From assembly GCA_035539675.1 (NCBI GenBank), contig DATLHW010000117.1, positions 1-39,084 of the forward strand: a stretch of 39,084 bases of DNA, written 5' to 3'. Origin of the DNA: Burkholderiales bacterium. Lineage in GTDB: Bacteria; Pseudomonadota; Gammaproteobacteria; Burkholderiales; DATLHW01. Made by a program: the position numbers and the translations under genes. Positions 33,385-35,679 of this stretch are shown here, one piece after another (positions within the stretch are counted from its first letter, which is position 1; each line of letters begins with the position of its first letter). Below the pieces are notes generated by a model. The model was not told the DNA's origin and ran no database searches. It worked only from the letters and a program-made list of their open reading frames with translations.

Positions 33385-35679
33385 ATGACAACTAAATATC
33401 CTATGACATTAGACTTCTTTCGAAACCGGAGCCAGCGGCCCAAGACTGTGGCGAGAAGCGCAGTCGCACAAGAGCGTACGGCGAGCATCACCGCCTCAGC
33501 TTTCGGTCGCGCAGTAGGTTTCGAAAGAAGTCTGTTTTCCAAGACGCTTCTTCTGGTAGCCCTTGCATGGACGCTTCCTTCCCTGCCTGTGTTCCCCCAG
33601 GCCCAGCACGCTCAGGACACGCAAAGCAACGCCACAGACAAAGAAGGCGTGACTTTGAATTTCCAGAACGCCGACATTCAACAAGTGATCAAGACCGTGG
33701 GGATGATCACCGGCAAGAACTTTCTGATCGATCCGCGCGTCAGCGGCACGATCAACATCATTTCCAATGGTCCGGTTCCCAAGGATCTCGTCTACCCCAC
33801 CCTGCTCTCGGCGCTACGCGTGCAAGGTTTCGCCGCGGTGGAGCAACAGGGCTTGGTGAAGATCGTGCCGGAAGCCGACGCCAAATTGAATTCCACCATC
33901 ACCACCGATAAGCCGACCAGCGCGCGCGGTGATCGCATGATCACGCAGATCTACCAGCTCCAGCACGAAAACGCGGCGCAACTAATACCCGTGCTGCGGC
34001 CATTGATCAGCCCGAATAACGTCATCATGGCCTATCCGGGAAACAACACGCTGGTCATCGCCGATTACGCCGAGAACGTGCGGCGGATTATCAAGATCAT
34101 CCAATCGATCGACCAACCGCCTCAAGGCGATATTGCAACGATTCCGTTGCAATACGCGTCCGCCGTGGATGTGGCGCAGTTGCTGGGAAGGCTCATACCG
34201 GAGGCCGCACAACAAACAAACATACCCGGCTCATCGCCTAAAGTGACCATCACGGTCGATCCGCGCAGCAACACGCTGTACGTCCGGGCGGATAGCCCGT
34301 CCTACGCACAACGCGTCAAAGTGCTAGTTGCGGGAATGGATACGCCAGCGGCGGCGACCGGCAATATTCATGTGGTTTATCTGCGCAACGCTGAAGCAAC
34401 CAAGGTGGCGGAGACATTGCGTGCTCTGCTTGCCGGCGGACAGGCATCCTCCTCCATCGGCCCCACACCCACACAACAACCAACGCCGCAAAACGCGCCC
34501 GGCGGCTTACCCAGTGCGATTCAGCCAACGGCGGGAGGAAGCGGTGGAAGCAGCCAGCAGGCCACGCCGAGCACCATTCAAGCCTACGCGGCGACCAACT
34601 CTCTGATCATCACGGCGACGGATCATGTTTACCGATCGCTACGCTCAGTGATCGACAAACTCGACGCCCGCCGTTCGCAAGTATTTGTGGAGGCGCTCAT
34701 TGTCGAAGTAAGCAGCACGAAGGCGGCCGAGTTTGGCATTCAGTGGCAAGACCTTACCGGCATTAATGAGCCGGGAACAAACATCATCGGCGGGACCAAC
34801 TTCACTGCGGGACCCGGGGGATCAACCGGAACAAACATTATTACCGCCTCCGGGAATATCGCCGCGGTTAGCGCGGGGCTCAACGTTGGCGTGGTGAGAG
34901 GAACTATCACGATCAACGGCCAGCAGTTCCTGAATCTCGGTATGCTCGCCCGTGCGTTGGAGAACGACTCTGCCGCCAATATCCTGTCCACGCCGAACAT
35001 CCTGACCCTGGACAACGAGGAAGCAAAAATCATCGTCGGCCAGAACGTGCCTTTCGTCACCGGCAGCTTTACCCAAACCGGCACGACGACCAGTCCCACC
35101 AATCCATTTCAGACCATCGAACGCAAGGATGTCGGCCTGACCTTGAAGGTTAAACCTCAGGTGGCCGAGGGCGGTAGCGTGAAATTGCAGATATTCCAGG
35201 AAGTATCGAGCGTCACCAACGACGCCCGGCTTGTCGGATCGGCTGACGTCATCACCAACAAACGCTCCATCGAATCGACGGTGCTGGTGGATGACGGACA
35301 AATTATCGTCCTGGGCGGCTTGGTTCAGGATGATTCCCAGAGCAACAAAAGCGGCATCCCGATATTGAGCAAAATCCCCATTCTCGGCAATCTCTTCCGT
35401 TCGGAAACCCGCAATCGCACAAAAACGAATTTGATGGTGTTTCTCCGCCCCCTCGTGTTGCGCGACGACAAGGCCGGCATGCAAATCACCGAGGACCGTT
35501 ACGATTACATTCGCAATCAGCAGATCAAGGCGAAGCCCGGAGACCATTTGATTCTGCCGAATTTCGACGGTCCGCTATTGCCCCCGGTAGGCGATCAGGC
35601 GCAACCCAGCAATGGATACACTCCGCCTGCGGCGCCAACCGCGCCTGCGCCTGCGCCTGCGCCACAGGAACAACGATAG
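33385..35679 (+). CDS. gspD: Type II secretion system secretin GspD (5' end carries an in-frame MITE insertion)
   Basis: 764 aa. N0-N3 domains (VTLNFQNADIQQVIKTVGMITGKNFLIDPRV...), a Gly/Ser/Pro-rich linker, and the secretin core (VEALIVEVS..., VLVDDGQIIVLGGL..., IPILGNLF). Codons 10-50 are encoded by the repeat element. Confidence 0.9.
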   Translation: MTTKYPMTLDFFRNRSQRPKTVARSAVAQERTASITASAFGRAVGFERSLFSKTLLLVALAWTLPSLPVFPQAQHAQDTQSNATDKEGVTLNFQNADIQQVIKTVGMITGKNFLIDPRVSGTINIISNGPVPKDLVYPTLLSALRVQGFAAVEQQGLVKIVPEADAKLNSTITTDKPTSARGDRMITQIYQLQHENAAQLIPVLRPLISPNNVIMAYPGNNTLVIADYAENVRRIIKIIQSIDQPPQGDIATIPLQYASAVDVAQLLGRLIPEAAQQTNIPGSSPKVTITVDPRSNTLYVRADSPSYAQRVKVLVAGMDTPAAATGNIHVVYLRNAEATKVAETLRALLAGGQASSSIGPTPTQQPTPQNAPGGLPSAIQPTAGGSGGSSQQATPSTIQAYAATNSLIITATDHVYRSLRSVIDKLDARRSQVFVEALIVEVSSTKAAEFGIQWQDLTGINEPGTNIIGGTNFTAGPGGSTGTNIITASGNIAAVSAGLNVGVVRGTITINGQQFLNLGMLARALENDSAANILSTPNILTLDNEEAKIIVGQNVPFVTGSFTQTGTTTSPTNPFQTIERKDVGLTLKVKPQVAEGGSVKLQIFQEVSSVTNDARLVGSADVITNKRSIESTVLVDDGQIIVLGGLVQDDSQSNKSGIPILSKIPILGNLFRSETRNRTKTNLMVFLRPLVLRDDKAGMQITEDRYDYIRNQQIKAKPGDHLILPNFDGPLLPPVGDQAQPSNGYTPPAAPTAPAPAPAPQEQR
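33412..33532. mobile_element. MITE-like element, family A (copy A2), inserted in frame in gspD
   Basis: Same 17-bp termini as A1 ((A)GACTTCTTTCGAAACC and GGTTTCGAAAGAAGTC(T)). Flanked by TA (33410-33411) and TG (33533-33534). The element plus one dinucleotide is 123 bp, or 41 codons, with no stop codon. Confidence 0.7.

What the first reader, a model, noticed from the sequence alone, without database searches (positions are those of the whole stretch)
33385..33540. MITE inserted in frame within the signal-peptide coding region of the secretin gene gspD
The family A element (121 bp) plus a duplicated dinucleotide adds exactly 123 bp, or 41 codons, with no stop codon, right after codon 9 of gspD.
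- Conceptual excision joins ...ATGACATTA|TTTTCCAAG... and restores MTTKYPMTLFSKTLLLVALAWTLPSLPVFPQAQ, a textbook Sec signal peptide.
- With the element present, the n-region gains DFFRNRSQRPKTVARSAVAQERTASITASAFGRAVGFERSL.

Either export tolerates this, or translation restarts internally (there is an in-frame GTG within the element), or secretin targeting is impaired. Rickettsia palindromic elements are the classic precedent for in-frame palindromic-repeat insertions. One within a secretion signal of a T2SS core gene is unusual.
Basis: partly seen in the sequence, partly recalled or inferred. Interest (0 to 1): 0.65.

Follow-up and report, generated by a model that had tools for sequence, protein, structure and literature searches.

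The report
Mobile repeat inside secretin signal peptide
A 123-bp mobile DNA repeat landed in frame in the export-signal part of a secretion-pore gene of an uncultured soil bacterium. It has been kept there in several diverging strains while the rest of the gene stays under selection, so it looks like a tolerated passenger in the part of the protein that is cut off.

Summary
Window 33411-33533 is a 123-bp MITE with perfect 17-bp terminal inverted repeats. Its target duplication is 3 bp (ATT), not a dinucleotide, so the insertion adds 126 bp (42 codons), open in frame.

- **Family:** 115 terminal sites in this 4.3-Mb MAG, 22 in the sister species, and none in 39 other families of the order.
- **Position:** the element sits 8 codons into gspD. 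The same-genus ortholog starts MPYIK|FSK, and about 120 homologs lack the segment.
- **Start codon:** there is no ATG, GTG or TTG between the element and the hydrophobic core, and a stop lies 6 nt before ATG 33385. Any exported GspD must therefore translate the element.
- **Independent support:** contigs from at least eight soil or rhizosphere runs carry the same junctions. No empty site was seen.
- **Selection:** a lineage about 4-7% diverged keeps the frame through a 6-nt deletion. There the insert changed 8 nonsynonymous to 1 synonymous codon, against 5:31 in the gspD body.

Best reading: a neutral passenger that lengthens the cleaved n-region from 11 to 53 residues. In-frame MITE insertions are known; this location is a new example. 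The fahA-gspD adjacency in the window is probably an assembly join.

The parts
33385..35679 (+). gspD ORF (764 aa), the type II secretion secretin, including the inserted element
   Evidence: ORF listed. TIGR02517 match of 645 bits, cut-off 351. An in-frame TAA at 33379 closes the frame upstream.
33385..33407 (+). Ancestral first codons MTTKYPMT. ATG 33385 is positionally homologous to the ortholog's start (AACC-ATG context).
   Evidence: In lineage X25/X4 the changes here are 2 synonymous plus K4R.
33408..33410 (+). Left copy of the 3-bp target-site duplication (ATT)
   Evidence: family-wide ANT duplication.
33411..33533 (+). 123-bp family-A MITE, open in the gspD frame; encodes most of the 42 added residues
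33411..33427 (+). Left terminal inverted repeat AGACTTCTTTCGAAACC
33517..33533 (+). Right terminal inverted repeat GGTTTCGAAAGAAGTCT
33534..33536 (+). Right copy of the target-site duplication. It reads GTT here and ATT in runs X25, X6, X26 and X28; the change is synonymous (CTG/CTA).
33448..33450 (+). In-frame GTG inside the element, the only possible internal restart that would keep the hydrophobic core
   Evidence: The nearest GGAG lies 16 nt upstream and is lost in lineage X25.
33544..33615 (+). Untouched hydrophobic core and c-region of the signal peptide (TLLLVALAWTLPSLPVFPQAQHAQ)
   Evidence: Kyte-Doolittle and charge analysis.
33178..33359 (.). Family-B repeat element just upstream of gspD, flanked by TAA...TAA; absent from this site in lineage X4. 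The start and end are my inference from where the X4 contig aligns, so they are approximate.
4164..4364 (.). Second family-A copy in the window: the 201-bp subfamily, whose interior shares a 77-nt module with family B. Intergenic, flanked AAT/AAT.

Best explanation
A non-autonomous DNA transposon (MITE) of a family that expanded in this genus transposed into an ATT triplet at codons 8/9 of gspD. The copy belonged to the 123-bp subfamily. With its 3-bp duplication it adds 126 bp, and it has no stop in the frame it landed in, so the gene stayed open.

Translation most likely still starts at the ancestral ATG (33385) and reads through the element. This gives a pre-secretin whose n-region is 53 residues instead of 11, and more basic (+7 instead of +2). 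The hydrophobic core and c-region are unchanged.

The n-region lies outside the mature protein. Once the Sec machinery has exported the pre-protein, signal peptidase removes the whole extension and mature GspD is unaltered. That would explain why the insertion is tolerated and has drifted to fixation.

**Shown:** the element's anatomy, the family, the ortholog empty site, the absence of any downstream start, persistence in diverged lineages, and purifying selection on gspD.

**Inferred:** which start codon is used, Sec export of the long precursor, and cleavage.
For: **MITE identity**
- Perfect 17-bp inverted terminal repeats, and 115 terminal sites in the genome against 0 for the control.
- A 3-bp ANT duplication in 41 of 54 copies.
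- Long-hairpin folds: -60 kcal/mol for this copy and -85 for the family consensus.

**No repair needed after insertion**
- The 123-bp subfamily copies (C125, C536, C156, C234, C316, C403) are open in the same frame.
- The 122-bp majority carries stops in that frame and would also shift it.

**Empty site in relatives:**

**No downstream start:**

**Signal peptide:** the n-region grows from 11 to 53 aa and from +2 to +7 net charge, the hydrophobic core is unchanged, and the insert has no second hydrophobic segment.

**Persistence in other lineages**
- X25 carries the element at the same site with 10 in-element substitutions. It also has a 6-nt deletion that keeps the frame, and no stop.
- X4, X6, X26 and X28 carry one junction each, at 4-7% local divergence.
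- No contig shows an empty site in the ten runs laid.

**Selection**
- gspD body, X4 against the window: 31 synonymous and 5 nonsynonymous changed codons.
- Post-element region: 9:3 in X6 and 8:3 in X28.
- Insert: 1 synonymous and 8 nonsynonymous. Fisher p = 5e-5 against the body.

**The rest of the secretion system is intact:** gspC, gspE and gspF, gspG and gspL.

**Literature**
- Natural Sec signal sequences with long N-terminal extensions exist in autotransporters and two-partner secretion proteins (PMC2805444).
- In-frame MITE fusions are documented (PMC10969869).
Against: - No signal-peptide predictor, proteomic data or transcript data were available, so the start codon, export and cleavage are not shown.
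- Neither ATG has a recognisable Shine-Dalgarno sequence. The ortholog's start lacks one as well.
- The c-region (PQAQHAQ) is not a textbook AxA site.
- A -60 kcal/mol hairpin beginning 26 nt after the start codon could lower expression.
- The frame-preserving deletion is one or two events, so chance alone would preserve the frame with probability between 1/9 and 1/3.
- Only one other lineage (X25) is seen across the whole element.
Confidence: 0.7

Rival explanations
1. Translation restarts inside the element at GTG 33448 (or at ATG 33403). Only part of the element is then translated, and the n-region is about 32 residues (or 47).
For: - GTG 33448 is in frame and is kept in lineage X25.
- The resulting n-region would still be basic, at +3.
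- ATG 33385 has no Shine-Dalgarno sequence.
Against: - The only GGAG lies 16 nt upstream of the GTG, too far by the usual spacing, and it is mutated to GTGG in X25.
- The GTG lies inside the stem of the predicted hairpin.
- ATG 33403 is 8 nt from the base of the hairpin.
- ATG 33385 sits in the same AACC-ATG context as the ortholog's start.
- The 8 upstream codons changed by 2 synonymous, one K-to-R and one L-to-S (the duplication codon) substitutions in X25. This is weakly consistent with the codons being translated.
Confidence: 0.12
2. The insertion impairs secretin targeting or expression, and the gene is on its way to being lost or is only weakly functional.
For: - A 53-residue n-region and a strong hairpin early in the coding region are plausible handicaps.
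- The operon has also taken up other repeats, namely family B upstream and a 36-bp inverted repeat between gspE and gspF.
Against: - The 764-codon ORF is intact.
- Synonymous changes outnumber nonsynonymous ones 31:5, 9:3 and 8:3 in three comparisons between lineages that all carry the element.
- The frame is kept through a deletion.
- The partner genes are intact.
- No empty-site allele was seen.
Confidence: 0.08
3. The element has been co-opted. Either its RNA hairpin acts as a processing or translation-tuning site that sets GspD levels relative to GspC, or its basic peptide acts like an extended signal-peptide region that delays targeting of the secretin.
For: - Both inverted terminal repeats are unchanged between the window and X25, while the 89-bp interior took 10 substitutions (hypergeometric p = 0.034).
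- The hairpin energy is retained: -60.4 against -63.2 kcal/mol.
- The insertion is fixed in every lineage seen.
Against: - The encoded peptide evolves almost freely, 8 nonsynonymous to 1 synonymous.
- The conservation of the terminal repeats is weak statistically. Gene conversion from the roughly 100 other copies could also explain it.
- The same family is otherwise overwhelmingly intergenic.
- No expression data exist.
Confidence: 0.08
4. The insertion is an assembly artefact created by collapsing a repeat in a fragmented MAG.
For: - The genome has 582 contigs and is rich in these repeats.
- The window contig probably is misjoined at the neighbouring family-B repeat.
Against: - This copy is about 20% diverged from the family consensus, so it assembles uniquely.
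- One Logan contig spans both junctions with no difference.
- An independent ENA contig is identical.
- Seven further runs from different studies hold the junctions.
Confidence: 0.02

Closest known systems
Rickettsia palindromic elements (RPE)
   Same: Short palindromic repeats found inserted in frame in protein-coding genes, translated as part of the host protein and tolerated (PMC10969869, citing Ogata et al. 2000 and 2002).
   Different: - No RPE family model matched the GspD protein in the NCBIfam scan.
- This family has clear 17-bp terminal repeats and a 3-bp duplication.
- It is mostly intergenic: only 2 of about 55 paired copies are clearly inside an ORF that has relatives lacking the insert.
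- The host is a free-living soil betaproteobacterium.
- Here the insert lies in a cleaved signal peptide, not in the mature protein.
Correia elements (CREE/NEMIS) of Neisseria
   Same: From my own knowledge: 100-155-bp MITEs with terminal repeats, at high copy number in a betaproteobacterial genus, co-transcribed with neighbouring genes into long hairpins.
   Different: - Correia elements duplicate TA, whereas this family duplicates ANT.
- There is no sequence relation.
- RNase III processing and promoter activity are shown for Correia elements and untested here.
Intragenic ERIC / enterobacterial small mobile sequences and other MITE-ORF fusions (QMITE1, Anabaena MITEs)
   Same: MITEs carrying open frames that fuse in frame with host ORFs (PMC10969869).
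   Different: These are different families. I found no report of one inside a Sec signal peptide.
Tourist-like MITEs of the PIF/Harbinger-IS5 superfamily
   Same: A 3-bp A/T-rich target duplication (canonical Harbinger elements give 3-bp duplications; PMC12730594).
   Different: - The duplicated triplet here is ANT. From my own knowledge, the usual one in that superfamily is TNA/TWA.
- No transposase carrying these terminal repeats was found, so membership is open.
Extended signal peptide regions of autotransporters and two-partner secretion proteins
   Same: Sec signal sequences of 40-60 or more residues, in which an N-terminal extension precedes a normal n/h/c signal (PMC2805444).
   Different: Those extensions are conserved, evolved domains. 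This one is transposon-derived, evolves almost neutrally and has no hydrophobic H1 segment.

Membership tests
MITE (miniature inverted-repeat transposable element) | Small (under about 300 bp), no transposase gene | tested here: met
   The copy is 123 bp. The modal family length is 122 bp, with a range of 49-278 bp.
MITE (miniature inverted-repeat transposable element) | Terminal inverted repeats | tested here: met
   17 of 17 bp are perfectly complementary.
MITE (miniature inverted-repeat transposable element) | Target-site duplication of fixed length | tested here: met
   A 3-bp ANT duplication is identical on both sides in 41 of 54 copies, against 2 of 54 for the control triplet. At gspD it reads ATT/GTT here and ATT on the right in four other runs.
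MITE (miniature inverted-repeat transposable element) | Many dispersed copies | tested here: met
   115 terminal-repeat sites in this genome and 22 in the sister species.
MITE (miniature inverted-repeat transposable element) | An autonomous IS with the same termini | tested here: inconclusive
   None was found in this MAG, in the sister genome's solo termini, or beside 108 public loci with the same 17-mer. MAGs often lack assembled IS copies.
   The variable middle base of the flanks is duplicated (ACT/ACT, AGT/AGT). This fits a 3-bp duplication and not TA.
Tourist-like / PIF-Harbinger-IS5 MITE | 3-bp duplication of TNA/TWA, and a cognate DDE transposase | tested here: inconclusive
   The length of 3 bp is met. 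The sequence is ANT, not TNA. No transposase was found.
Rickettsia palindromic element (RPE) | Sequence membership in an RPE family | tested here: not met
   The NCBIfam scan of the full protein returned only secretin families.
GspD secretin of the type II secretion system | Full-length match to the GspD equivalog model with N0, secretin-N and secretin domains | tested here: met
   TIGR02517 at 645 bits, cut-off 351. PF21305, PF03958 and PF00263 are recorded on the identical public protein. gspE follows directly.
Sec-type signal peptide | Positively charged n-region followed by a hydrophobic h-region | tested here: met
   The n-region is +7. The h-region TLLLVALAWTL has a Kyte-Doolittle score of 2.23, equal to that of the ortholog's signal.
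Sec-type signal peptide | Recognised by a trained predictor, cleaved by signal peptidase I, and exported | not testable with these tools
   No SignalP or experimental data are available. PQAQHAQ is not an ideal AxA site by eye.

The most novel reading that the evidence does not exclude
The transposon has been domesticated rather than merely tolerated. In one version, its conserved terminal stem forms an RNA structure early in the gspD coding region that tunes secretin synthesis relative to GspC. In the other, its basic 42-residue peptide works as a makeshift extended signal-peptide region that slows targeting of an aggregation-prone secretin. Separately, the same 17-bp termini with the same ANT duplication flank unrelated MITEs in several phyla, which points to an undescribed and very widely spread transposase with unusually conserved end recognition.
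Probability: 0.1. Interest if true: 0.6.

Novelty: new member of a known kind. Interest (0 to 1): 0.42.

Why it matters
This is a natural experiment on how much extra sequence the n-region of a Sec signal peptide can carry. A core outer-membrane secretin has kept a 42-residue transposon-encoded extension through strain divergence while its mature part stays under purifying selection.

It adds a free-living soil betaproteobacterium to the short list of bacteria in which MITEs are translated as part of host proteins. It also points to cleaved leader peptides as a safe landing zone for such insertions.

In practice, gene callers and signal-peptide predictors are likely to mis-handle such genes.

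The side observation may interest transposon specialists more than the gspD case itself: identical 17-bp termini and an ANT duplication occur on unrelated MITEs across phyla, with no known transposase.

Tried and rejected
**Searches for the autonomous transposase (nothing found)**
- Terminal-repeat pairs 0.6-3.5 kb apart in the MAG enclose housekeeping genes.
- Solo perfect termini in the sister genome are truncated remnants next to ordinary genes.
- In 108 public loci with the 17-mer, the two IS-sized pairs carry a proC-like or vWA-like gene rather than a transposase. No protein recurs beside the termini.

**Other searches that led nowhere**
- A gapped terminal-repeat pattern in genome contigs gave nothing.
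- The terminal-repeat sequence is not in the searchable literature.
- Literature searches found no MITE in a signal peptide.
- The consensus scan found no sigma-70 promoter or terminator at 33100-33700.

**Ideas tested and rejected**
- I considered whether the longer N-termini of relatives P0004 and P0007 are decayed copies of the element. They show no terminal repeats and no DNA similarity.
- I first took two SNPs shared by contig C360 and the ENA contig as proof of gspC-B-gspD linkage. I withdrew this because that variant is the family-B consensus, present in 19 copies. The X4 contig gave the linkage instead.
- The C244 host protein has no Pfam match.
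Full report
**What is there.** The sequence at 33385-33540 reads ATG ACA ACT AAA TAT CCT ATG ACA TT|A GAC TTC TTT CGA AAC C...GG TTT CGA AAG AAG TCT| GTT TTC CAA G. AGACTTCTTTCGAAACC (33411-33427) and its exact reverse complement (33517-33533) bound a 123-bp element. The same termini bound a 201-bp element at 4164-4364. 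That makes 4 hits in the window against 0.08 expected from shuffles. The ORF 33385-35679 (764 aa) runs through the element with no stop. It matches the GspD equivalog TIGR02517 at 645 bits (cut-off 351), and gspE follows 3 nt later.

**The repeat family.**
- The window's assembly is a 4.33-Mb MAG of 582 contigs, 54% G+C, about 86% complete.
- The 17-mer, allowing 1 mismatch, occurs 115 times against 0 for the reversed control. It occurs 22 times in the only other species of the genus and not at all in 39 genomes from other families of the order.
- I paired 55 copies. The modal length is 122 bp (20 copies), with a 123-bp subfamily (8 copies) and a roughly 200-bp subfamily.
- The copies align along their whole length and fold as long hairpins. 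The consensus folds at -85 kcal/mol and the gspD copy at -60 kcal/mol.
- The flanks show a 3-bp duplication of the form ANT. It is identical on both sides in 41 of 54 copies (AAT 24, ATT 12, AGT 3, ACT 2). No copy has identical 4-bp flanks, and the control triplet further out matches in 2 of 54.
The element is 123 bp and the insertion added 126 bp, or 42 codons.
- At gspD the duplication reads ATT...GTT in the window. The right copy is ATT in runs X25, X6, X26 and X28, and the G/A difference is synonymous.

**It is an insertion, not ancestral sequence.**
- The same-genus ortholog (71% identical from residue 50 on) begins MPYIKFSKNLSILALTCML. Its start sits in the context AACC-ATG, 11 nt after the gspC stop. 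The window has TAAACC-ATG.
- The window protein is MTTKYPMT-[42 aa]-FSKTLLLVALAW, so the shared FSK motif directly follows the insert.
- None of the roughly 120 best homologs in the 5.8-billion-protein search covers residues 10-50, apart from an identical protein from a public ENA contig.
- Two relatives have longer N-termini, with n-regions of about 22-27 residues. Their DNA has no terminal repeats and no similarity to the element. They do show that n-region length varies naturally in this clade.

**No start codon can bypass the element.** In frame, the only ATG/GTG/TTG codons before the end of the hydrophobic core are ATG 33385, ATG 33403 and GTG 33448, which lies inside the element. The next is GTG at codon 69, at the end of the core. 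A TAA at 33379 closes the frame just upstream of ATG 33385. An exported GspD must therefore include at least the last 28 element-encoded codons, and from the ancestral start it includes all of them. The GGAG ahead of the internal GTG is 16 nt away and is lost in lineage X25. Neither ATG has a Shine-Dalgarno sequence, and neither does the ortholog's start.

**Effect on the signal peptide.**
- The hydrophobic core (TLLLVALAWTL, Kyte-Doolittle 2.23) and the c-region are untouched.
- The n-region grows from 11 to 53 residues and its net charge from +2 to +7.
- The insert has no hydrophobic segment of its own; its best 11-residue window scores 0.92.
- Long Sec signal sequences with N-terminal extensions are known from autotransporters and two-partner secretion proteins (PMC2805444).

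**Why it was open on arrival.** In the orientation and frame used in gspD, most 122-bp copies carry two or three stops, and at 122+3 bp they would also shift the frame. The 123-bp subfamily copies are open in that frame and give very similar peptides, for example DFFRNRSERVKAEARSAAVQTRTVSIAASALTRAVGYERS in C536. No later repair needs to be assumed.

**Independent support and age.**
- A separately assembled ENA contig (4259 bp) is identical across the region.
- In run X1 a 1755-bp Logan contig spans 33328 to beyond 34100 with no difference.
- Runs X3 and X11, from other studies, hold the left junction.
- Run X25 has a 221-bp contig covering 33364-33590 from a diverged lineage. It carries 15 substitutions and two 3-nt gaps (117-bp element). 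The frame is kept, there is no stop, and both terminal repeats are unchanged.
- Run X4 is the same lineage, sharing the three substitutions at 33395, 33399 and 33402. It holds the left junction on a 730-bp contig.
- Runs X6, X26 and X28 hold the right junction on contigs that run into gspD. The X6 and X28 contigs differ from the window at 5-7% of positions.
- In the ten runs laid on this region, no contig skips the element.
- The insertion therefore post-dates the split from the sister species and pre-dates the diversification of these lineages.

**Selection.**
- Between the window and X4, 36 changed codons in the gspD body are 31 synonymous and 5 nonsynonymous, the latter mostly conservative. 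Of the 40 substitutions, 33 are at third codon positions.
- Just downstream of the element the counts are 9:3 in X6 and 8:3 in X28.
- Inside the element (X25) the counts are 1 synonymous and 8 nonsynonymous codons plus a two-codon deletion. Fisher's exact test against the body gives p = 5e-5.
- GspD is therefore maintained by selection in lineages that carry the element, while the encoded peptide itself is nearly unconstrained apart from staying in frame.
- The other components are intact: gspC, gspE and gspF, and gspG and gspL.

**Interpretation.** The best-supported account is a tolerated, nearly neutral in-frame MITE insertion in the part of the pre-protein that is removed after export. The steps not shown are which start codon is used, Sec export of the long precursor and its cleavage. 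Four rivals remain:
- An internal restart at GTG 33448 cannot be excluded, but nothing supports it.
- Impairment of the gene is disfavoured by the selection data.
- Co-option of the hairpin or the peptide rests on weak hints. These are the absence of change in 34 terminal-repeat positions against 10 changes in 89 interior positions (p = 0.034) and the retained hairpin energy.
- An assembly artefact is excluded.

**Comparison with what is known.** In-frame MITE-ORF fusions are documented for Rickettsia RPEs, intragenic ERIC, QMITE1 and Anabaena MITEs; the review PMC10969869 calls them 'not unusual'. This is a new member of that kind. My literature searches found no earlier case inside a Sec signal peptide. 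The family is not an RPE and not a TA-duplicating element. Its 3-bp duplication resembles PIF/Harbinger-IS5-type elements in length (PMC12730594), but the triplet is ANT, and no transposase was found. The genome holds a second in-frame case. A 111-bp copy (plus 3 bp, 38 codons) sits in the same frame (LDFSRNRS...FERGL) in the middle of a 947-codon ORF on contig C244, and a paralog on C476 lacks the segment.

**Context correction.**
- In the window, gspD appears to diverge from fahA across a family-B repeat.
- This genome's gspC lies on contig C360. Its stop codon is followed immediately by a family-B copy, and the contig ends inside that copy.
- In lineage X4 one 730-bp contig joins the 3' end of gspC directly to window 33360-33432: gspC-TAA, 22 nt, then the gspD ATG and the family-A element, with no family-B element.
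- Run X1 holds both the fahA|B and the gspC|B junctions at the organism's depth.
- The real order is therefore almost certainly gspC-[B]-gspD-gspE-gspF. The fahA-gspD adjacency is a join across a repeat, and the family-B insertion (TAA duplication at the gspC stop) is younger than the family-A insertion.

Noticed in passing
window 33164-33362; G000 contig C360:1-141: The window contig is probably misjoined inside the family-B repeat. gspC lies on contig C360, which ends in a B copy. In lineage X4 a single contig joins gspC directly to gspD with no B element. gspD is therefore the second gene of a gspC-D-E-F operon and is not divergent from fahA.
   Followed up: partly
window 33178-33359: The family-B repeat (TACTTGTGCAAAAG termini, at least 19 copies sharing a 30-mer) inserted exactly at the gspC stop codon with a TAA duplication. 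It is absent from that site in lineage X4, so it is younger than the family-A insertion.
   Followed up: partly
G000 contig C244:9571-9681: A second in-frame family-A insertion (111 bp + 3 bp, 38 codons, same frame: LDFSRNRS...FERGL) sits in the middle of a 947-codon ORF that has no Pfam match. A paralog on C476 lacks the segment.
   Followed up: partly
public loci L036-L143, e.g. L113:1291-1434, L095:7008-7149, L066:3453-3618: The identical 17-bp termini with the same 3-bp ANT duplication flank MITEs of 59-250 bp with unrelated interiors in very distant bacteria. These include Chlamydiota, Holosporaceae, Legionella, Mycoavidus, Glomeribacter, Clostridia and Melainabacteria. No transposase was found beside them, and the sequence is not in the searchable literature. 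About 70 single hits would be expected by chance in 596 Gb (my own calculation from the collection size, not a tool result). The paired, duplication-flanked copies are not chance.
   Followed up: partly
window 4164-4364, and five other copies of about 200 bp: The 200-bp subfamily of family A has an interior that shares a 77-nt module (71% complementary) with the interior of family B, so these are chimeric or nested MITEs.
   Followed up: no
window 37227-37364: A 36-bp perfect inverted repeat (138-bp element) lies between gspE and gspF. It is a third repeat element within the same secretion operon.
   Followed up: no
G000 contig C543:1863-1914: A 52-bp mini-copy of family A lies next to gspL in the gspG-L part of the type II secretion genes.
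   Followed up: no
window 33411-33427 and 33517-33533: Both terminal repeats are unchanged between the window and lineage X25, while the 89-bp interior took 10 substitutions and a 6-nt deletion (p = 0.034). The cause could be constraint, gene conversion or chance.
   Followed up: partly
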